Shown here: positions 384 through 8,567 of the stretch, piece by piece
How the letters are laid out: every line of letters begins with the position of its first letter
How positions within the stretch are numbered: the first letter of the stretch is position 1
Sequence record: OZ035748.1
Reading direction: 5' to 3' (one strand)
Source of the DNA: Przondovirus KP32i192
Length of the DNA stretch: 40,168 bases
The notes under the pieces: model-generated
Seen by the model: the letters and a program-made list of their open reading frames with translations, nothing else
Told to the model about the DNA's origin: nothing
Database searches by the model: none
Translations under genes and position numbers: made by a program

Positions 384-830
384 ATGCTGGAGTTCACAAA
401 GAGAATCGTCCCGTATCTTGTGGCTATCATGGTGTTTGCCTTCGGGTGGCACTTGGGTTCGCAATCTACGGACGCTAAATGGAAGGAGGAAGTACAGAAT
501 GAGTACGTTAAGAAGCAAACGGCTAGAGCTGAAACTCAGAAAGCGATTGACGCAGTATCGGCTAAGTACCAAGCAGACCTTGAGGGGCTGGAGGGCAGCA
601 CTGATAGGGTTATTGCTGATTTGCGTAGCGACAATAAGCGGCTGCGCGTCAGAGTCAAACCTACCAGTGTCACCGCAGGACCAGACGGTCGATGCCTCGT
701 TGATGGTTCCGTCGAACTACACGAAGCAACTGCTCGAAGTCTTATCGCAATAACCCAGAAGGCCGACCTCAAAGAGAAGGCCCTACAGGACACTATTCGC
801 AAGCTACAGAGGAAAGGAGGTGAACATTGA
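384..830 (+). CDS. i-spanin (Rz-like, T7 gp18.5-like)
   Basis: 148-aa ORF with N-terminal TM segment; near-identical blocks to recalled T7 gp18.5 ([31 protein letters not shown]). Confidence 0.85.
499..753 (+). CDS. o-spanin (Rz1-like, T7 gp18.7-like) embedded in +1 frame inside the i-spanin gene
   Basis: Internal Met of the 313..753 ORF; product MSTLRSKR...[19 protein letters not shown] has signal peptide plus lipobox (ISGC) and matches recalled T7 gp18.7. Confidence 0.7.
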   Translation: MSTLRSKRLELKLRKRLTQYRLSTKQTLRGWRAALIGLLLICVATISGCASESNLPVSPQDQTVDASLMVPSNYTKQLLEVLSQ

Positions 831-2584
831 GTAACTCTCAGCAAGCCAAGAACGCCTTAATCATTGCGCAACTGAAGGGTGACTTTGTCGCCTTTCTCTT
901 CGTGCTCTGGAAGGCCCTGAACCTGCCGGAACCAACCAAGTGTCAAATCGACATGGCCAAGTGCCTGGCGAACCCAAAGAACAAGAAGTTTATCCTTCAG
1001 GCTTTCCGTGGTATCGGGAAGTCATTCATCACGTGTGCGTTCGTAGTGTGGACCCTTTGGCGTGACCCTCAGTTAAAGATACTGATTGTCTCAGCCTCAA
1101 AGGAACGTGCGGACGCTAACTCCATCTTCATCAAGAACATCATCGACTTGTTGCCTTTCCTGAGTGAGCTTAAGCCTCGCCCCGGTCAGCGTGACTCCGT
1201 GATTAGCTTTGATGTAGGCCCTGCCAAGCCGGACCACAGCCCGTCAGTTAAGTCTGTGGGTATTACGGGTCAGCTTACTGGTAGCCGTGCCGATATCATC
1301 ATTGCGGATGACGTGGAGATTCCCGGTAACTCTGCGACTCAAGGTGCTCGTGAGAAACTCTGGACGCTGGTTCAGGAGTTCGCTGCACTGTTGAAACCCC
1401 TGCCGACTAGCCGTGTTATCTATCTGGGTACCCCTCAGACCGAGATGACGCTCTACAAGGAACTTGAGGACAACCGTGGGTACTCCACCATCATTTGGCC
1501 TGCGCAGTATCCTCGCTCCAAAGAGGAAGACCTGTACTATGGCGACCGACTGGCACCGATGCTCCGCAGTGAGTACGATGAGGACAAAGAGGGTCTCAGC
1601 AGCCAACCTACCGACCCGGTTCGATTCGACTCCATGGACCTTCAGGAGCGTGAGGTGGAATACGGTAAGGCTGGCTACACGCTTCAGTTCATGCTCAACC
1701 CGAACCTTAGTGACGCCGAGAAGTATCCTCTACGCCTCCGTGACGCTATCGTGTGCGGTCTACAGATGGACAAGGCCCCAATGCATTACCAGTGGTTGCC
1801 GAATCGTCAGAACCGCAATGAGGAGCTTCCTAACGTGGGCATGAAGGGTGACGAGATTTACTCATTCCATACGGCATCCAGTAACACTGGTACGTATCAG
1901 GGTAAGATTCTGGTCATCGACCCAAGTGGTCGCGGTAAGGATGAGACTGGCTGGTGCGTACTGTACACCCTCAACGGCTACATCTACCTGATGGACGCTG
2001 GCGGCACTCGCGGTTACGAAGAGAAGTCCCTTGAGTTCCTCGCTAAGAAAGCAAAACAGTGGCAGGTTCAGACTGTGGTCTTCGAGAGTAACTTCGGTGA
2101 CGGTATGTTCGGTAACGTCTTCCAGCCTGTGCTCCTGAAGCATCACCCAGCGCAGCTCGAAGAGATTCGTGCTCGTGGTATGAAAGAGGTACGTATCTGC
2201 GATACCCTTGAGCCTGTACTGGCAAGTCACCGCTTGGTCATCCGCGATGAGGTAATCCGACAGGACTACCAGACGGCACGGGACGCAGACGGTAAGCACG
2301 CTCTGAAGTACAGCCTGTTCTACCAGATGACCCGTATGAGCCGTGAGAAGGGTGCTGTGGCACACGATGACCGACTTGATGCATTAGCATTGGGTGTCGA
2401 GTTCCTACGCTCTACGATGCAGCAGGACGCTGTGAAGATAGAGGCTGAGGTACTTCAGGAGTTCTTGGAGCACCACATGGAGAAGCCCCTGAGTAACATC
2501 TCCCAGTTCCGGGTCACCAGTAGCAACGGTGTGGACATCCGATGGGAAGACGACGGGGACGACTCTATGTTCATCGCATGGTGA
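827..2584 (+). CDS. Terminase large subunit / DNA maturation protein B (T7 gp19-like), TTG start
   Basis: 585-aa ORF collinear with recalled T7 gp19 ([25 protein letters not shown], ATPase and nuclease blocks); start is TTG 6 nt after aaggagg. Confidence 0.9.
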
Positions 2585-2664
2585 TTATGCAAGGATTGTG
2601 CATAAGGATTCATTAGGCCACGGAAGGCCACTTTGAGGAAACTCCATGTATAACAGACACTTGG

Positions 2665-2687
2665 AATTAGGGCACACTATAGGGAGA
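2665..2687 (+). promoter_or_regulatory. Phage RNAP promoter (phiOR-like, right end)
   Basis: AATTAGGGCACACTATAGGGAGA, full match to the window consensus; +1 G at 2682. Confidence 0.75.
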
Positions 2688-2828
2688 GACCCTTGAAGAC
2701 TTACTATAAGACAACTTAAAGATTCATTCATATAGTTATTCACTTTAAGTCTCCTTAAAGGTAGAGGGTAGTGATGATAATATCACCCTCTCACTACAAG
2801 ACACTAAGAGCCAACATAAGGAGGACCT

Positions 2829-2978
2829 ATGCGCTTATTGTTAACCTTACTGCGCCATAGGACTACTTGGCGATTTCTGCTGGTACTTGCTGGTGCCCTT
2901 GGGGCTTCACTGGTTACTCAGCAGCAACTCAGTGGACTGGAGACTCTCGTGTGCTCTCTACTCACTTGTAGCGATTAG
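2829..2978 (+). CDS. Small hydrophobic protein (gp19.5-like by position)
   Basis: 49-aa ORF with aaggagg RBS 8 nt upstream; hydrophobic; lies between terminase gene and genome end as gene 19.5 does in T7. Confidence 0.4.
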   Translation: MRLLLTLLRHRTTWRFLLVLAGALGASLVTQQQLSGLETLVCSLLTCSD

Positions 2979-3039
2979 GGTCTTCCTGACGCGCTAGGGA
3001 TTCCGTAGTGATGCTTATCAGCATACACCACTCCATCCC

Positions 3040-3440
3040 TCTATAGTCAATACTTAAAGTTAACCTTAGGTGATTCACTGGGTCTACCTACGGGTCTATG
3101 CACTGACCTGAGGACTACCTGAGGTTACCTTTAAGAATTTTACATAAAGTTCTGAGTGTACATCTCACAGTTTACACTTTTGGTCATCCCCCCCGGTACC
3201 CCTCCAGTTCACCCAAAGTAACCATGGGTACCCCCCTCTTTACCTTCAGTTTAACCTTGGGTGGTACCTTGGGAGTCCTTAGGTGATACTATATGTTGTG
3301 GTGTGGGTGACCTGAGGATACTATATGTTGATGTCTCTGTGTCCCTATCTGTTGGCCCTCTTTAAGTATCCACTGAGTACCACCTGAGGTTAGACCTGAG
3401 GTAATACCGGAGACCATATACCTTAGGTTAACCATGCGGC
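3040..3440. repeat. Array of short CCT(T/G)(A/G)GG heptamer repeats flanking the terminal-repeat region
   Basis: At least 9 copies of ccttagg / cctgagg / ccttggg, plus a 20-bp imperfect direct repeat (ccttaggtgatactatatgttg at 3277-3298, cctgaggatactatatgttg at 3311-3330); analogous to the short repeats near T7 genome ends. Confidence 0.5.
3163..3350. repeat. Putative direct terminal repeat (single collapsed copy) with predicted physical left end near 3163
   Basis: TCTCACAG at 3163-3170 matches the recalled T7 left-end sequence; TCTCTGTGTCCCTATCTGTT at about 3334-3353 matches the conserved block near the inner edge of the T7 terminal repeat; boundaries inferred. Confidence 0.35.
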
Positions 3441-3492
3441 CATCTGGTGAGTCATCACTATAGGGCTATTGGTGGTCATTGTCAATCAATCC

Positions 3493-3515
3493 TATTAGGA
3501 CACACTATAGGGAGA
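3493..3515 (+). promoter_or_regulatory. Phage RNAP promoter (phiOL-like, left end)
   Basis: TATTAGGACACACTATAGGGAGA; +1 G at 3510. Confidence 0.65.
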
Positions 3516-3594
3516 CACTTAAAGTATTACTTAGGGACCATCACCATAAAGATCACCATCACTATAGGTCTAACTAAAAGTTTAACTTTAAGTG

Positions 3595-3623
3595 TTGACA
3601 TTCAGATTCCGTTATGAGACATT
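3595..3623 (+). promoter_or_regulatory. Candidate host sigma70 early promoter (A1-like)
   Basis: -35 TTGACA (3595-3600), 17-bp spacer, weak -10 GACATT (3618-3623); position and flanks resemble T7 A1. Confidence 0.35.
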
Positions 3624-3726
3624 AGCAACCGTTGAGAGACACAACGCTACCAACCACTAGCATACTTCGAGTTATCTGGTTAGACTGATGGTCTCAAGTA
3701 GTCATCAACCGGACATACGAAAGTGG

Positions 3727-3755
3727 TTGACTCAACGATGAATAAGTAGTAAGAT
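3727..3755 (+). promoter_or_regulatory. Host sigma70 early promoter (A2-like)
   Basis: -35 TTGACT (3727-3732), 17-bp spacer, -10 TAAGAT (3750-3755); same hexamers as recalled T7 A2. Confidence 0.55.
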
Positions 3756-3854
3756 GCACCACAGATTCACGAAGTACCGCTAGGCAACTAGCATTGCTCT
3801 TTAACAATATGGATTAGTCAAGCTGATATGTACACCATGATAATAGTGTTTAAC

Positions 3855-3925
3855 TAGTGGTTACATTCAGGTCTCTGGCAAGGTACGTCCTGTCACCCTG
3901 AGAGTAGCCACAATGATAACCACTA
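3855..3925 (+). promoter_or_regulatory. Candidate long-range stem-loop in gene 0.3 leader (R0.3-like)
   Basis: TAGTGGTTA (3855-3863) is perfectly complementary to TAACCACTA (3917-3925), 9-bp stem enclosing 53 nt, immediately upstream of the gene 0.3 RBS. Confidence 0.3.
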
Positions 3926-3946
3926 ATCAACTGAAGGATATACATT

Positions 3947-4414
3947 ATGATTTTCACGAAAGAACCAGCCAACAAAGTATTCGTATTTGTTACTGCATAC
4001 CGTGGCCATGAGTCGCAGGAAGTAAACGAGAAGATGCTCAAGGGTCTCATTAAGACCATTCGCACCTATCCGGGAGCATACGGCAACATTCGTGATGAAC
4101 ATGTACAGGGCTGCTTTAAAGAAGCTGGTATGCCTGAGGCAACGCAAGAGCGCACGCTTAAAGTTGAGTGTACTGAGAAGCAAGCCGCAGAGTTGACGTG
4201 GCTGGCCTGTAAGACCTACTCGCAAGATGCTGTGCTGGTGGTGAACTCACAGACCCATACAGCCGCGCTATGGTCTATCACAAGCGTGGGAGAGTATCCG
4301 CAAGCATTTCCGATGCTCAAAGAGGATGCACTAGGTGGCACGCTGCAACAAGTGGACGCACCAAAGGGCGAATGCTATTCAAGCATCGACGGGCAATACT
4401 GGGAGGTGGTCTAA
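3947..4414 (+). CDS. SAM hydrolase/lyase (T3 gp0.3-like SAMase), anti-restriction
   Basis: 155-aa first early gene; N-terminus MIFTKEPA..VFVFV and overall collinearity with recalled T3 SAMase; not Ocr-like (not acidic). Confidence 0.7.
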   Translation: MIFTKEPANKVFVFVTAYRGHESQEVNEKMLKGLIKTIRTYPGAYGNIRDEHVQGCFKEAGMPEATQERTLKVECTEKQAAELTWLACKTYSQDAVLVVNSQTHTAALWSITSVGEYPQAFPMLKEDALGGTLQQVDAPKGECYSSIDGQYWEVV

Positions 4415-4560
4415 TGATTAATTATGGCCTCACTCAGGCAGACATTAGGCATTACCGCTGGTTGCTCTCACTAGGTAAACCGCACGACTACCTAATGATT
4501 CACCTAGCGCAAACCTACCGCACACGTAAGGTAATGTATGATAACCCTGTTCGTAATTAG
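4414..4560 (+). CDS. Hypothetical early protein (48 aa)
   Basis: ATG overlaps SAMase stop (TAATG); gggagg RBS 7 nt upstream; position of T7 genes 0.4-0.6. Confidence 0.4.
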   Translation: MINYGLTQADIRHYRWLLSLGKPHDYLMIHLAQTYRTRKVMYDNPVRN

Positions 4561-4735
4561 TGTGTACGCCATGATTGTCCTGTACTTTGTGCGGGACTTT
4601 CGTAAGGGTCTCAAGGTACACAAGGCATCATTCAGTTACATGAAGTGGGGCATACTGCCTCGCTTTACTGTACGGCTACCAAATGGCCGCTTTAAGGCTA
4701 ACAAGGTAGGTATTTTCTACATCGCAACCCATTGA
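4538..4735 (+). CDS. Hypothetical early small membrane protein (65 aa)
   Basis: ORF with aagg RBS; N-terminal hydrophobic segment ITLFVISVYAMIVLYFV. Confidence 0.4.
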   Translation: MITLFVISVYAMIVLYFVRDFRKGLKVHKASFSYMKWGILPRFTVRLPNGRFKANKVGIFYIATH

Positions 4736-4760
4736 CAAACCACCATAAGGAAACAACCTA

Positions 4761-5777
4761 ATGAACTACACCGACATGCAAGAACGCTTAGACGTCATCC
4801 GTAACCTGCCAATCTGTGAACTCGACAAGCGCCAGCCGCTGCTGGTAGCACTCATCGCGGACATTGTGAACTGCGAGACGTCCGATGGTGACGACACGGA
4901 TAGCGATTGGGGTCTGGAGCGACAGGACTACTGGCAAACCCTGAAGATTAAGGCCAAAGACGCTGGGTTTAACCTGCTGGGCAATGGACACTTCAGCGCA
5001 GCGTTTAAGCACGAGCTGCTACCGGGTAGGGTCATTAAGGTTGGCTTTAAGAAAGAGGATTCAGGGGCCGCATACGTGGCTTTCTGCCGGATGCACCAAG
5101 GCCGGGCAGGCATCCCTAACGTCTATCACGTAGCGCGTCACGCTGGGTGCTATACGGTGGTACTTGATGAGTTGGAACCATGCAAGCGCAGCAGTAACCA
5201 CTTGCACGACCACTACGCAGACCTCGCGTATTATTTTGTCGAGTGTGACTATGAGCCTGAGGAGCACCACGAGAAGGACTTACCGTTCATTGAGACGTGC
5301 CAGATGATTCGGGACTTCTTCTGTGGGATTGCATCCTTCGATATGCACAGCGGTAACATCATGTTCACCAAAGACGGCAAGCCAGTGATTACCGACCCGG
5401 TGTCATTCTCGGCGGACCGGGACCGTGAGCCTTTCTCACTGGAACCTGAGGAGCTACTTGCTGAGATTGAGCAGATAGCGCACGACAAGATGATTGAACG
5501 CTGCAAGCGCAACAAGGCTAAGCGTGACCCGAACGGAGCGCTGCGCATCGCACGGCGTAAGGCCAATAAGGAGCGTCGAGCACGCCGTAAGGCGCACGCT
5601 AGGTGGCGTAAGGAGCGTGAACGTGAACGTGAGCAGTATCACGTAGACGCCCTAAAGTTAGACCTAGCGAGTGTCGAGGAGCGCATTCTGGCGTGGCAAA
5701 TGGGTCCCGGCCTAGCGATACAAATGGGCAAGCCGTTGCCAATCGACAACTACCTTCAGGGTAGACTTATGGGTTAG
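4761..5777 (+). CDS. Serine/threonine protein kinase and host transcription shutoff protein (T7 gp0.7-like)
   Basis: 338-aa ORF; long identical blocks with recalled T7 gp0.7 (LPICELDKRQ, GNGHFSAA, RVIKVGFKKEDSGAAY, GIASFDMHSGNIMF). Confidence 0.85.
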   Translation: MNYTDMQERLDVIRNLPICELDKRQPLLVALIADIVNCETSDGDDTDSDWGLERQDYWQTLKIKAKDAGFNLLGNGHFSAAFKHELLPGRVIKVGFKKEDSGAAYVAFCRMHQGRAGIPNVYHVARHAGCYTVVLDELEPCKRSSNHLHDHYADLAYYFVECDYEPEEHHEKDLPFIETCQMIRDFFCGIASFDMHSGNIMFTKDGKPVITDPVSFSADRDREPFSLEPEELLAEIEQIAHDKMIERCKRNKAKRDPNGALRIARRKANKERRARRKAHARWRKEREREREQYHVDALKLDLASVEERILAWQMGPGLAIQMGKPLPIDNYLQGRLMG

Positions 5778-5791
5778 CAAGGTGTATCTTA

Positions 5792-5813
5792 GGTGTCTCC
5801 CGCAAGAGGCACC
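5792..5813 (+). promoter_or_regulatory. RNA hairpin in gene 1 leader (candidate R1 processing site)
   Basis: GGTGTCTC ccgcaa GAGGCACC: 8-bp stem (one G-U), 6-nt loop, no following U-tract so not an intrinsic terminator. Confidence 0.3.
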
Positions 5814-5846
5814 GATAGATAAACTTTATTCACAAAGAGGCACACA

Positions 5847-8567
5847 ATGAACGCATTAAACATTGCACGTAATGACTTCTCAGAGATTGAACTGGCCGCT
5901 ATTCCGTACAACATCCTCAGCGAGCACTACGGGGACAAGCTGGCACGTGAGCAGTTAGCACTGGAGCATGAGGCGTACGAGCTGGGTGAGCAGCGTTTCC
6001 TGAAGATGTTAGAACGTCAGGTGAAAGCTGGAGAGTTCGCTGACAACGTGGCCGCTAAGCCGCTGGTCCTAACGTTGCACCCGCAGCTGACCAAGCGCAT
6101 TGACGATTGGAAGGAGGAACAAGCAAACGCTCGTGGTAAGAAGCCTCGCGCATACTACCCGATTAAGCACGGCGTGTCCTCAGAGCTGGCCCTCAGTATG
6201 GGCGCTGAGGTACTCAATGAGAAGCGCGGAGTGTCCAGTGAGGCAATCGCACTGCTGACCATTAAGGTCGTCTTAGGGACGCTCACAGACGCCTCCAAGG
6301 CAACCATCCAGCAGGTATCCTCTCAGTTAGGCAAGGCTCTTGAGGATGAGGCCCGCTTTGGTCGTATCCGTGAGCAGGAAGCCGCCTACTTCAAGAAGAA
6401 CGTAGCGGACCAGCTGGACAAGCGTGTAGGCCACGTGTACAAGAAGGCTTTCATGCAGGTCGTCGAGGCCGATATGATTTCCAAAGGGATGCTGGGTGGG
6501 GACAACTGGTCCAGCTGGAAAACTGACGAGCAGATGCATGTGGGGACCAAGCTGCTTGAGCTACTCATCGAGGGCACTGGTCTGGTGGAAATGACCAAGA
6601 ACAAGATGGCCGATGGCTCCGACGATGTGACCAGTATGCAGATGGTCCAGCTGGCTCCGGCCTTTGTGGAACTCCTGAGCAAACGAGCGGGAGCACTCGC
6701 AGGTATCAGCCCGATGCACCAACCATGCGTAGTCCCTCCGAAACCTTGGGTGGAGACCGTAGGCGGTGGCTACTGGTCAGTCGGTCGCCGCCCGCTGGCG
6801 CTGGTTCGTACCCACTCCAAGAAGGCACTGCGCCGCTACGCAGACGTGCACATGCCCGAGGTATACAAAGCGGTAAACCTCGCGCAAAACACGCCGTGGA
6901 AGGTGAACAAGAAGGTGCTGGCGGTAGTCAACGAGATTGTCAACTGGAAGCACTGCCCGGTTGCTGACGTCCCGGCGATTGAACGCGAAGAGTTACCACC
7001 ACGCCCGGACGATATCGACACCAACGAGGTGTCACGCAAGGCATGGCGCAAGGAGGCCGCAGCGGTCTACCGTAAGGACAAGGCCCGCCAGTCTCGCCGT
7101 TTGTCAATGGAGTTCATGGTCGCACAGGCCAACAAGTTCGCTAACCACAAGGCCATCTGGTTCCCGTACAACATGGACTGGCGCGGACGTGTGTACGCTG
7201 TGAGCATGTTCAACCCGCAGGGTAACGACATGACCAAGGGTATGCTGACGCTGGCCAAGGGTAAGCCAATCGGTCTCGACGGGTTCTACTGGCTGAAGAT
7301 TCACGGTGCAAACTGTGCAGGCGTCGACAAGGTTCCATTCCCTGAGCGCATCAAGTTCATCGAAGAGAACGAGGGTAACATTCTGGCGAGCGCAGCAGAC
7401 CCGCTGAATAACATTTGGTGGACACAGCAAGATTCACCGTTCTGTTTCTTGGCGTTCTGCTTTGAGTACGCAGGCGTTAAACATCATGGCCTGAATTACA
7501 ACTGCTCGCTGCCGCTGGCATTCGATGGGTCATGCTCTGGGATTCAGCACTTCAGCGCGATGCTCCGCGATTCCATCGGTGGTCGTGCGGTTAACCTGCT
7601 GCCTTCTGATACTGTGCAGGATATCTACAAGATTGTGGCCGACAAGGTTAACGAGGTGCTTCACCAGCACGCTGTCAACGGGTCTCAGACGGTGGTCGAG
7701 CAGATTGCTGATAAAGAGACTGGCGAGTTCCGCGAGAAAGTAACACTGGGTGAGTCCGTGCTGGCTGCTCAGTGGTTGCAATATGGCGTGACCCGTAAGG
7801 TGACTAAGCGTTCGGTCATGACGTTGGCGTACGGTTCCAAAGAGTTCGGCTTCCGCCAGCAAGTTCTGGAAGACACCATTCAGCCTGCTATTGACAATGG
7901 CGAGGGCTTGATGTTTACGCACCCTAACCAAGCGGCTGGCTACATGGCTAAGCTGATTTGGGACGCTGTGACCGTGACCGTAGTGGCCGCTGTCGAGGCA
8001 ATGAACTGGCTGAAGTCTGCCGCTAAGCTGCTGGCTGCTGAAGTCAAGGACAAGAAGACCAAAGAGGTGCTGCGTAAGCGCTGCGCAATCCACTGGGTAA
8101 CACCCGATGGCTTCCCGGTGTGGCAGGAGTACCGCAAGCAGAACCAAGCGCGCCTGAAGCTGGTCTTCCTCGGGCAGGCCAACGTCAAGATGACGTATAA
8201 CACTGGGAAGGACTCAGAGATTGATGCCCACAAGCAGGAATCCGGCATAGCTCCTAACTTTGTTCACTCACAGGACGGTAGTCACCTACGCATGACCGTA
8301 GTACACGCCAACGAGGTCTACGGGATTGACTCCTTCGCACTCATTCACGACTCCTTCGGGACCATTCCGGCTGACGCTGGGAATCTCTTTAAGGCAGTCC
8401 GTGAGACGATGGTCAAGACCTACGAGGACAACGATGTGATCGCTGACTTCTACGACCAGTTCGCTGACCAGCTGCACGAGTCTCAACTGGACAAGATGCC
8501 AGCTGTTCCGGCCAAAGGTGACCTGAATCTGCGAGACATCTTGAAGTCAGACTTCGCGTTTGCGTAA
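5847..8567 (+). CDS. Single-subunit DNA-dependent RNA polymerase (T7 gp1-like)
   Basis: 906-aa ORF; collinear with recalled T7 RNAP along the full length, including the active-site region (LPLAFDGSCSGIQHFSAMLRD) and C-terminal FAFA. Confidence 0.95.
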   Translation: MNALNIARNDFSEIELAAIPYNILSEHYGDKLAREQLALEHEAYELGEQRFLKMLERQVKAGEFADNVAAKPLVLTLHPQLTKRIDDWKEEQANARGKKPRAYYPIKHGVSSELALSMGAEVLNEKRGVSSEAIALLTIKVVLGTLTDASKATIQQVSSQLGKALEDEARFGRIREQEAAYFKKNVADQLDKRVGHVYKKAFMQVVEADMISKGMLGGDNWSSWKTDEQMHVGTKLLELLIEGTGLVEMTKNKMADGSDDVTSMQMVQLAPAFVELLSKRAGALAGISPMHQPCVVPPKPWVETVGGGYWSVGRRPLALVRTHSKKALRRYADVHMPEVYKAVNLAQNTPWKVNKKVLAVVNEIVNWKHCPVADVPAIEREELPPRPDDIDTNEVSRKAWRKEAAAVYRKDKARQSRRLSMEFMVAQANKFANHKAIWFPYNMDWRGRVYAVSMFNPQGNDMTKGMLTLAKGKPIGLDGFYWLKIHGANCAGVDKVPFPERIKFIEENEGNILASAADPLNNIWWTQQDSPFCFLAFCFEYAGVKHHGLNYNCSLPLAFDGSCSGIQHFSAMLRDSIGGRAVNLLPSDTVQDIYKIVADKVNEVLHQHAVNGSQTVVEQIADKETGEFREKVTLGESVLAAQWLQYGVTRKVTKRSVMTLAYGSKEFGFRQQVLEDTIQPAIDNGEGLMFTHPNQAAGYMAKLIWDAVTVTVVAAVEAMNWLKSAAKLLAAEVKDKKTKEVLRKRCAIHWVTPDGFPVWQEYRKQNQARLKLVFLGQANVKMTYNTGKDSEIDAHKQESGIAPNFVHSQDGSHLRMTVVHANEVYGIDSFALIHDSFGTIPADAGNLFKAVRETMVKTYEDNDVIADFYDQFADQLHESQLDKMPAVPAKGDLNLRDILKSDFAFA

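What the first reader, a model, noticed from the sequence alone, without database searches (positions are those of the whole stretch)
4414..4735. Two overlapping small early ORFs downstream of the SAMase gene
Both ORFs (48 and 65 aa) have RBS-like sequences and tight overlaps (TAATG junction), and the second has a hydrophobic N-terminus. Small early proteins at this position in T7 (gp0.4, gp0.5, gp0.6) act on host physiology, e.g. cell division. These do not resemble the T7 ones that I can recall.
Basis: inference. Interest (0 to 1): 0.35.

Follow-up and report, generated by a model that had tools for sequence, protein, structure and literature searches.

The report
Two small early phage host-takeover genes
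Two short overlapping genes in the early region of a T7-like Klebsiella phage are real and conserved: one is a distant relative of the T7 protein that blocks bacterial cell division, and the other is a widespread membrane-anchored early protein of unknown function.

Summary
ORF1 (4414-4560, 48 aa) and ORF2 (4538-4735, 65 aa) lie between the SAM lyase gene and the gp0.7-type kinase gene of a Przondovirus (KP32-like Klebsiella phage). Both have Shine-Dalgarno sites. Both are under purifying selection in their own frames across 70 related genomes, with pN/pS of 0.38 and 0.28 against more than 1.1 in the other same-strand frames.

ORF1 is a divergent gp0.4 homologue, the family of the T7 FtsZ inhibitor. 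It shares a Pfam family with T7 gp0.4, is linked to it by bridging sequences, aligns without gaps, and keeps the residues that T7 gp0.4 needs to act on FtsZ. The FtsZ surface that gp0.4 binds is identical in a Klebsiella species. ORF1 most likely blocks host cell division; this is inferred, not shown.

ORF2 is the orthologue of T3/phiYeO3-12/BA14 gp0.6A and K1F gp0.6, not of T7 gp0.5 or gp0.6. It has an N-terminal membrane helix and a strongly basic four-stranded beta domain, with no fold match and no relatives outside T7-like phages. Its target is unknown.

Overall this is an ordinary finding with modest interest: ORF1 is a new member of a known kind, and ORF2 belongs to a conserved family with no known function.

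The parts
3727..3755 (+). Sigma-70-like promoter candidate (TTGACT-17-TAAGAT) upstream of the early operon; context only
   Evidence: Consensus scan, 9 of 12 matches. The number of sites in the region is not above the shuffle expectation. The position roughly matches a host promoter annotated in KpV763. Weak evidence.
3947..4414 (+). Gene 0.3 equivalent: S-adenosylmethionine lyase ('SAMase'), 155 aa; its stop overlaps the ORF1 start (TAATG)
   Evidence: Pfam PF23780 S-AdoMet_lyase, E 2e-36; phrog_2226.
4402..4407 (+). Shine-Dalgarno sequence GGAGGT, 6 nt before the ORF1 ATG
   Evidence: Read directly from the sequence.
4414..4560 (+). ORF1, 48 aa: gp0.4-family protein (13a type), a predicted two-helix hairpin and inferred FtsZ-binding inhibitor of cell division
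   Evidence: phrog_5058, E 9.5e-25. 52% identical to 13a gp0.4. T7 gp0.4 hits phrog_5058 at 9e-5. hhalign gives an ungapped match to T7 gp0.4, E 1.4e-5, and to PP81 gp03, 95.7% probability. Homologues of both ORF1 and T7 gp0.4 carry PF26807.1. pN/pS 0.38. AF2 model has helices 8-19 and 23-42.
4527..4532 (+). Shine-Dalgarno sequence TAAGGT, 5 nt before the ORF2 ATG, lying inside the ORF1 coding sequence
   Evidence: Read directly from the sequence. Synonymous sites of ORF1 codons 42-48 are almost frozen, pS 0.046 against about 0.4 elsewhere.
4538..4735 (+). ORF2, 65 aa: T3-type gp0.6A orthologue with an N-terminal transmembrane helix and a basic four-stranded beta domain; target unknown
4761..5777 (+). 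Gene 0.7 equivalent: serine/threonine protein kinase, 338 aa; context, 25 nt after the ORF2 stop
   Evidence: phrog_2828, E 2.8e-174.

Best explanation
The two ORFs are consecutive genes of the host-RNA-polymerase-transcribed early operon of a Przondovirus. The gene order is 0.3 (SAM lyase), 0.4-like, 0.6A-like, 0.7 (kinase), 1 (RNA polymerase). The start-stop overlaps suggest that the genes from 0.3 through ORF2 are translated as a coupled unit.

ORF1 is a 48-aa two-helix hairpin of the gp0.4 family. Like T7 gp0.4, it most likely binds the synergy-loop face of monomeric host FtsZ through the hydrophobic face of its helices (I11, L18, H24, M28, L31, Y35). That would block FtsZ polymerisation and cell division early in infection. 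The family assignment and residue conservation are shown here. Binding to FtsZ and the phenotype are inferred.

ORF2 is the T3-type gp0.6A. It is a single-pass inner-membrane protein, with its N-terminus predicted outside by the positive-inside rule. Its 47-residue cytoplasmic domain is very basic (11 K/R against 1 D/E), forms a four-stranded beta sheet, and is nearly invariant across phages of many enterobacterial genera. It probably binds a highly conserved, membrane-proximal host component. The architecture and conservation are shown here. The target is unknown.
For: Both ORFs code for protein: pN/pS is 0.38 and 0.28 in frame against more than 1.1 in the other same-strand frames, and the overlap is kept in 43 loci.

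ORF1:
- 52% identical to 13a gp0.4.
- T7 gp0.4 matches phrog_5058 at 9e-5, and 13a gp0.4 matches both phrog_5058 (7.6e-21) and phrog_7202 (9.5e-6).
- PP81 gp03 bridges the two families, 1.7e-13 to phrog_7202 and 1.3e-9 to phrog_5058.
- hhalign: E 1.4e-5, 9.5e-9, 5.5e-5.
- The same precomputed Pfam family, PF26807.1, is on ORF1 homologues and on T7 gp0.4 homologues.
- Of the six T7 residues whose substitution abolishes toxicity, attributed to loss of FtsZ inhibition (V15, V22, W28, M32, L35, Y39; PMC13423816), three are identical in ORF1 (M28, L31, Y35), two are conservative (I11, L18) and one is changed (H24). M and Y are invariant across the superfamily.
- A two-helix hairpin is predicted, as described for T7 gp0.4.
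- FtsZ residues 1-316 of a Klebsiella species differ from E. coli only at positions 86 and 93, outside the gp0.4 interface at 199-206, 262-270 and 292-303.
- K1F carries a phrog_5058 member, and K1F infection causes filamentation with mislocalised FtsZ (PMC9372555).

ORF2:
- Family.
- Invariant C-terminal motif across 97 sequences.
- Confident model.
- Hydropathy and charge.
- TMHMM found a transmembrane domain in gene 0.6 of the T3-like phage AP5 (PMC4283147).
Against: ORF1:
- Only 26% identical to T7 gp0.4, and direct profile-profile probabilities are moderate (66-80%).
- W28, a T7 escape position, is His here.
- The tail after helix 2 is basic (TYRTRKVMY) where T7 is acidic (ELYENNK), so E40 corresponds to R36.
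- The AF2 model is of low confidence (pLDDT 65).
- No member of phrog_5058 has been tested experimentally, and no complex with FtsZ could be modelled here.

ORF2:
- No homologue has a known function.
- No fold match.
- No hit in Pfam, NCBIfam or PADLOC.
- The topology is inferred only from the charge distribution.

All public records call both proteins hypothetical.
Confidence: 0.7

Rival explanations
1. ORF1 keeps the gp0.4 fold but has been retargeted. It would bind a host protein other than FtsZ, or act mainly as a decoy or anti-defence factor, so it is not a cell-division inhibitor.
For: Low identity to T7 gp0.4. W28 is replaced by His and the C-terminal tail has the opposite charge. Helix 1 and the loop are a diversity hotspot in Przondovirus, 1.12 bits per column against 0.18 for ORF2 in the same genomes, and some alleles carry a 12-aa loop insertion. 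That pattern is typical of proteins in conflict with host factors.
Against: The residues that vary are not the FtsZ-contact positions of helix 2, which are invariant. The FtsZ target surface is identical in Klebsiella. K1F, which carries a protein of the same PHROG, perturbs FtsZ during infection.
Confidence: 0.2
2. ORF2 is the functional analogue of T7 gp0.6 or gp0.5. It would be a membrane-tethered inhibitor of the cell-elongation machinery (MreB or its membrane partners) that, together with ORF1, freezes host morphogenesis.
For: It sits in the same position as T7 genes 0.5 and 0.6, between 0.4 and 0.7. [quoted passage not shown] Membrane anchoring would place the basic domain where MreB filaments lie. 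Its extreme conservation across enterobacterial genera fits a conserved housekeeping target.
Against: There is no sequence or profile similarity to T7 gp0.6A/B or gp0.5: different PHROGs and hhalign probability of 1% or less. K1F carries both a separate gp0.5-like membrane protein and this family, so the two are not simple substitutes. There are no experimental data.
Confidence: 0.15
3. ORF2 acts at the membrane for the phage's own benefit. It could exclude superinfecting phages, counter a membrane-associated abortive-infection system, or tether nucleic acid through its basic beta sheet.
Confidence: 0.15
4. The overlap reflects a programmed frameshift that makes an ORF1-ORF2 fusion protein, or one of the two ORFs is not a gene.
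For: The 23-nt overlap is conserved. One metagenomic relative, L056, has the two ORFs in a single frame. T7 and T3 annotate 0.6B frameshift products.
Against: Each ORF has its own ATG and Shine-Dalgarno site. Each is under purifying selection in its own frame. ORF2 occurs without ORF1 in T3 and BA14, and ORF1-type genes occur without ORF2 in 13a. ORF2 is in the +1 frame, and I saw no slippery heptamer in the overlap when reading the sequence.
Confidence: 0.03

Closest known systems
T7 gp0.4 (51 aa), FtsZ inhibitor; Kiro et al. 2013 as cited in PMC9372555; Zhang et al. 2026, PMC13423816
   Same: Same Pfam family, PF26807.1, by precomputed annotation. Same position directly after gene 0.3. Same size and two-helix hairpin. 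Shared N-terminal YGLT motif and M-x-x-L-x-x-x-Y motif in helix 2, which holds the FtsZ-contact residues.
   Different: 26% identity. W28 becomes His. The C-terminal tail is basic rather than acidic. All six residues needed to activate the CapRel-Ebc defence protein (A12, T14, L16, S19, R23, K36) differ in ORF1 (Q8, D10, R12, R15, S19, A32). ORF1 is therefore predicted, by inference, not to trigger that sensor.
gp0.4 of phage 13a, and the unnamed 49-aa protein of K1F (DQ111067 1623-1772); both phrog_5058
   Same: Same PHROG as ORF1. 52% identical to 13a gp0.4, including the basic tail TYRxRK. Same position after gene 0.3.
   Different: None has been tested on its own. K1F was reported to lack a gp0.4 homologue while still disturbing FtsZ.
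T3 / phiYeO3-12 / BA14 gp0.6A and K1F gp0.6 (phrog_2385)
   Same: ORF2 is 66-75% identical to T3 and BA14 gp0.6A and 41% to K1F gp0.6. It has the same length, the same N-terminal membrane helix and the same PRFTVR..NGRFKANKVG motif.
   Different: T3-type phages have a downstream ORF (phrog_10380), annotated in T3 as '0.6B protein'; phiYeO3-12 has a 119-aa 'putative 0.6B protein' whose first 65 residues match ORF2. The window lacks that ORF. No function is known for any member.
T7 gp0.5 and gp0.6A/B (gp0.6 is the MreB-targeting protein)
   Same: Same genomic slot between 0.4 and 0.7. Small early proteins. gp0.5 is also hydrophobic.
   Different: No detectable homology: different PHROGs and hhalign probability of 1% or less.

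Membership tests
gp0.4 family (Pfam PF26807; phrog_7202 / phrog_25044 / phrog_5058) | Significant sequence or profile similarity to T7 gp0.4 | tested here: met
   T7 gp0.4 against phrog_5058, E 9e-5. hhalign of the ORF1 family against T7 gp0.4, E 1.4e-5, ungapped over 39 columns. Bridge through PP81 gp03. PF26807.1 is on homologues of both. That Pfam model is not in the local Pfam copy, so the window protein itself could not be scored against it.
gp0.4 family (Pfam PF26807; phrog_7202 / phrog_25044 / phrog_5058) | Protein of about 45-60 aa forming two antiparallel helices | tested here: met
   48 aa. AF2 model has helices 8-19 and 23-42, but mean pLDDT is only 65. T7 gp0.4 is described as two antiparallel helices.
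gp0.4 family (Pfam PF26807; phrog_7202 / phrog_25044 / phrog_5058) | Conservation of the residues required for toxicity in T7 (V15, V22, W28, M32, L35, Y39) | tested here: met
   These map to I11, L18, H24, M28, L31 and Y35: three identical, two conservative and one changed (W to H). M and Y are invariant across the superfamily alignment.
gp0.4 family (Pfam PF26807; phrog_7202 / phrog_25044 / phrog_5058) | Early-region gene located directly downstream of gene 0.3 | tested here: met
   Its start overlaps the stop of the SAM lyase gene. The arrangement matches T7, 13a and K1F.
gp0.4 family (Pfam PF26807; phrog_7202 / phrog_25044 / phrog_5058) | Binds FtsZ and inhibits Z-ring assembly and cell division | not testable with these tools
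   Indirect support only: the FtsZ interface is identical in Klebsiella, and K1F shows the phenotype.
T3-type gp0.6A (phrog_2385) | Full-length profile match with the conserved motif DF[RK]KGL.VHKA...PRFTVR..NGRFKANKVG | tested here: met
   phrog_2385, E 2.7e-29 over residues 1-65. 12 invariant and 22 near-invariant columns in 97 sequences.
T3-type gp0.6A (phrog_2385) | N-terminal transmembrane helix | tested here: met
   Residues 2-18 have mean hydropathy 2.5 and are followed by RDFRKG. AF2 helix spans 2-27. The sequence of this segment varies but stays hydrophobic across relatives. TMHMM found a transmembrane domain in AP5 gene 0.6. Actual membrane insertion was not tested.
T3-type gp0.6A (phrog_2385) | Downstream ORF in T3-like phages (phrog_10380), labelled '0.6B protein' in the T3 record | tested here: not met
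   The phrog_10380 ORF of T3 and P25a is absent. Only 25 nt separate ORF2 from the kinase gene. This feature is optional within the family; BA14 also lacks it.
T7 gp0.6 (MreB-targeting; phrog_8393) | Sequence or profile similarity to T7 gp0.6A/B | tested here: not met
   No cross-hit between the PHROGs. hhalign probability 1.0%.
T7 gp0.5 (phrog_16572) | Sequence or profile similarity to T7 gp0.5 | tested here: not met
   No cross-hit. hhalign probability 0.4%.

The most novel reading that the evidence does not exclude
Two readings remain open.

First, ORF2 may define a new class of membrane-anchored early effectors, with a fold not seen in the PDB, that disables a conserved envelope-proximal host machine common to Enterobacterales.

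Second, the sharp contrast within ORF1 may record an arms race. Helix 1 and the loop are hypervariable, and they include every position that in T7 contacts the CapRel sensor. Helix 2, which faces FtsZ, is invariant. The arms race would be with host immune proteins that guard FtsZ by sensing the gp0.4-FtsZ complex.
Probability: 0.25. Interest if true: 0.6.

Novelty: new member of a known kind. Interest (0 to 1): 0.3.

Why it matters
In every public record I read, these two proteins are called hypothetical in Klebsiella Przondovirus phages. These phages are widely used in therapy research.

Recognising ORF1 as a gp0.4-type protein gives a testable candidate for a peptide inhibitor of Klebsiella cell division. 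It also offers a candidate for the unidentified FtsZ-perturbing factor of K1F, and it widens the family beyond what recent papers assumed.

If ORF1 alleles differ in whether they trigger FtsZ-guarding defences such as CapRel, that would affect phage host range.

ORF2 is among the most conserved early proteins across T7-like phages of many enterobacterial genera and still has no function. That makes it a sensible target for a small-protein functional study.

None of this changes current understanding in a major way.

Tried and rejected
- Pfam, NCBIfam and PADLOC scans of both proteins found nothing. The one PADLOC hit had E 0.05 and is noise.
- PDB sequence searches found nothing meaningful.
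- An exhaustive profile search of 1.84 billion representatives with the ORF2 alignment found only 12 short proteins and no informative domain fusion. The 150-aa proteins listed in the ORF2 cluster are SAM lyases and look mis-clustered.
- Homology of ORF2 to T7 gp0.6A/B or gp0.5 was rejected.
- I tested whether the third ORF found in relatives (phrog_10380, with the motif AMAYGAS) is another gp0.4-like hairpin. It is not: hhalign probability 0.3%.
- Rfam found no RNA element in 2600-6000.
- The promoter and terminator scan was not above shuffle expectation.
- Literature searches for gp0.6A, for 0.6A/0.6B, for gene 0.6 and for PF26807 gave no functional information on the ORF2 family or the name of the Pfam family.
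- A crude pN/pS on helix 1 of ORF1 is 0.42, so positive selection is not demonstrated. The alleles are too diverged for this measure to be informative.

Full report
**What the window is.** The 500 bases around the finding match 343 phage records, almost all of them Klebsiella Przondovirus (KP32-like members of the T7 subfamily Studiervirinae), at up to 98% identity. Annotated relatives place the region about 1.1-1.9 kb from the left genome end, after the terminal repeat and the host promoters. The local gene order is:
- SAM lyase (3947-4414; Pfam S-AdoMet_lyase, E 2e-36)
- ORF1
- ORF2
- gp0.7-type kinase (4761-5777)
- RNA polymerase (5847-8567)

This is the class I, or early, region of a T7-like phage.

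**Checking the observation.**
- ORF1 runs from ATG 4414 to TAG 4560 and encodes 48 aa. Its ATG shares the last A of the SAM lyase TAA stop (TAATG), and GGAGGT lies 6 nt upstream.
- ORF2 runs from ATG 4538 to TGA 4735 and encodes 65 aa. It is in the +1 frame and overlaps ORF1 by 23 nt. TAAGGT lies 5 nt upstream.
- ORF2 residues 2-18 are strongly hydrophobic, with mean Kyte-Doolittle hydropathy 2.5.

The description is accurate, except that the TAATG junction is between the SAM lyase gene and ORF1, not between the two ORFs.

ORFs this short are frequent by chance, so I tested whether they code for protein. I fetched 70 related loci from IMG/VR and added the annotated phage loci.
- ORF2 gives pN/pS of 0.28 in its own frame, against 1.28 and 1.78 in the other two same-strand frames.
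- The 48-aa ORF1 alleles give 0.38, against 1.25 and 1.13.
- The 60-aa ORF1 alleles give 0.40, against 1.27 and 1.21.
- The best opposite-strand frame gives 0.47-0.57. That is the expected echo of shared wobble positions and is still higher than the annotated frames.
- The 23-nt overlap is kept in 43 loci.
- Synonymous change in ORF1 codons 42-48 is almost absent (pS 0.046), as expected where two reading frames and a ribosome-binding site coincide.

Both ORFs are real genes.

**ORF1 is a gp0.4 homologue.**
- tblastn finds ORF1 relatives in 346 phage records. These include gp0.4 of the T7-group phage 13a (52% identity) and a Pectobacterium phage PP81 protein annotated as a putative FtsZ inhibitor.
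- In PHROGs, ORF1 and 13a gp0.4 fall in phrog_5058. T7 gp0.4 falls in phrog_7202 but also hits phrog_5058 (9e-5), and 13a gp0.4 hits phrog_7202 (9.5e-6).
- The C-terminal half of PP81 gp03 bridges the two. It scores 1.7e-13 to the T7 family and 1.3e-9 to the ORF1 family. Its sequence visibly mixes both: LPHDRAMVHL as in ORF1, and LYENNKHVAL as in T7.
- hhalign aligns ORF1 residues 2-40 with T7 gp0.4 residues 6-44 without a gap (E 1.4e-5, probability 80%). It gives 95.7% probability with PP81 and 66% for family against family.
- Independently, every ORF1 homologue and every T7 gp0.4 homologue returned by the large protein database carries the same precomputed Pfam family, PF26807.1. That model is newer than the local Pfam copy, and I could not find its name.
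- The AF2 model is a two-helix hairpin, with helices 8-19 and 23-42 and a low pLDDT of 65. This matches the description of T7 gp0.4.

**How ORF1 probably works.** Zhang et al. 2026 (PMC13423816) report the following for T7 Gp0.4:
- It binds monomeric FtsZ with an affinity of 382 nM.
- It binds on the synergy-loop face and so blocks polymerisation.
- V15A, V22A, W28A/L, M32A, L35A/P and Y39A each abolish toxicity.

In the ungapped alignment these positions are I11, L18, H24, M28, L31 and Y35 in ORF1. In a superfamily alignment covering T7, PP81, 13a, K1F and five Przondovirus allele types, the invariant columns are the YG of the N-terminal motif, this Met, this Tyr and a Lys. The Leu is nearly invariant.

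The FtsZ regions that Gp0.4 protects in HDX-MS are residues 199-206, 262-270 and 292-303. The only Klebsiella FtsZ I retrieved (K. spallanzanii) differs from E. coli FtsZ within residues 1-316 only at D86E and E93D. The target surface is therefore unchanged in that species. I did not retrieve K. pneumoniae FtsZ.

There is also circumstantial support from K1F. Its 49-aa gene directly after 0.3 is a full-length phrog_5058 member (E 1.2e-24). K1F infection produces filaments with multiple mislocalised Z-rings, although the authors concluded from BLAST that K1F lacks a gp0.4 (PMC9372555).

I conclude that ORF1 most likely inhibits host cell division by sequestering FtsZ. The cautions are:
- Identity to T7 gp0.4 is only 26%.
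- W28 is His here.
- The tail after helix 2 is basic rather than acidic.
- Nothing in phrog_5058 has been tested directly.

**Variation in ORF1.** Within otherwise closely related Przondovirus genomes (kinase N-terminus 90-98% identical, ORF2 82-98%), ORF1 ranges from 38% to 100% identity. At least five allele types exist, two of them with a 12-residue insertion in the inter-helix loop. Mean column entropy is 1.12 bits for residues 1-27, 0.48 for residues 28-48, and 0.18 for ORF2 in the same loci.

All six T7 residues needed to activate the CapRel-Ebc defence protein but not needed for FtsZ inhibition (A12, T14, L16, S19, R23, K36) differ in ORF1. Five of them map to the variable part of ORF1 (residues 8-19); K36 maps to A32 in the conserved part. 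This pattern is suggestive of immune pressure, but crude pN/pS there is 0.42, so positive selection is not shown. The upstream gene is either a SAM lyase or an Ocr, independent of ORF1 allele type. Recombination between modules is therefore an alternative explanation.

**ORF2 is the T3-type gp0.6A.**
- tblastn finds it in 727 phage records from phages of Klebsiella, Escherichia, Salmonella, Yersinia, Pectobacterium, Erwinia, Serratia, Citrobacter and Enterobacter. Hits include BA14 gp0.6A (75%), T3 (66%) and K1F gp0.6 (41%).
- It is a full-length member of phrog_2385.
- T7 gp0.5 and gp0.6A/B belong to other PHROGs and show no profile similarity. The name 0.6 reflects position, not homology with T7.
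- Across 97 diverse members, 12 columns are invariant and 22 nearly so, almost all in the C-terminal 47 residues.
- The N-terminal helix varies in sequence but stays hydrophobic. pN/pS is 0.48 there and 0.23 in the C-terminal domain.
- The AF2 model is confident (pLDDT 87): helix 2-27 followed by four beta strands.
- The soluble part has 11 Lys/Arg against 1 Asp/Glu, and RDFRKG follows the hydrophobic helix directly. By the positive-inside rule this places the domain in the cytoplasm.
- TMHMM independently found a transmembrane domain in gene 0.6 of the T3-like phage AP5.
- An exhaustive profile search of 1.84 billion protein representatives returned only 12 short proteins.

The family is therefore confined to T7-like phages and has no known function. 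In T3 a downstream ORF (phrog_10380) carries the label '0.6B protein', and phiYeO3-12 has a 119-aa 'putative 0.6B protein' that matches ORF2 over its first 65 residues. That ORF is missing from the window, where only 25 nt separate ORF2 from the kinase gene.

My best guess is that ORF2 is a membrane-tethered binder of a highly conserved, membrane-proximal host component. The specific candidates are the elongation machinery (by analogy with T7 gp0.6), exclusion or anti-defence, and nucleic-acid tethering. Each has low support.

**Verdict.** ORF1 is a new, unannotated member of the known gp0.4 family, with an inferred FtsZ-inhibiting mechanism. ORF2 is a member of an already catalogued but functionally unknown family. 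Interest is modest.

Noticed in passing
L008 1107-1256 (K1F, DQ111067 1623-1772): K1F encodes a 49-aa full-length phrog_5058 (gp0.4-like) protein directly after gene 0.3. A 2022 paper states that K1F lacks gp0.4 yet blocks FtsZ through an unknown peptide. This gene is the obvious candidate.
   Followed up: partly
window 4414-4494 (ORF1 codons 1-27); loci L010-L079: Helix 1 and the loop of ORF1 are a diversity hotspot in Przondovirus. There are at least five allele types, two with a 12-aa loop insertion. Mean column entropy is 1.12 bits, against 0.18 for ORF2 in the same genomes. Helix 2 is invariant.
   Followed up: partly
window 3947-4414 and 4736-4760; loci L010-L079: The early region is mosaic. 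Gene 0.3 is either a SAM lyase or an Ocr, independent of ORF1 allele. Relatives carry one or two extra small ORFs (phrog_12100, or phrog_10380, the ORF labelled '0.6B protein' in T3) between ORF2 and the kinase gene. The window has none.
   Followed up: partly
L056 (IMG/VR 3300045988_000688) and L079 (SH-Kp 152410): L056 has ORF1 and ORF2 in one 115-aa reading frame, with the membrane helix disrupted. L079 has the ORF1 N-terminus fused to the phrog_10380 ORF, with most of ORF2 deleted. These are natural indel variants or assembly errors.
   Followed up: no
L009 1354-1671 (PP81 gp03): In Pectobacterium phage PP81 the gp0.4 domain is the C-terminal half of a 105-aa protein (phrog_25044). It lies after the 0.6-type gene rather than before it, so both the gene order and the domain architecture of the family vary.
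   Followed up: partly
window 3947-4414: Many public records label this SAM lyase 'SAM-dependent methyltransferase', the label used by PHROGs. The Pfam match is to the S-AdoMet lyase family.
   Followed up: no
window 827-2584: The terminase large subunit gene, which lies at the right end of a T7-like genome, sits at the start of the window. The window is therefore a circular permutation of the phage genome. By offset from relatives, the physical left end falls near position 2830.
   Followed up: no
cluster 2 (P0158, P0170): Two 150-aa proteins listed in the 90% identity cluster of ORF2, one of them its representative, are SAM lyase sequences. This looks like a clustering artefact in the protein collection.
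   Followed up: no
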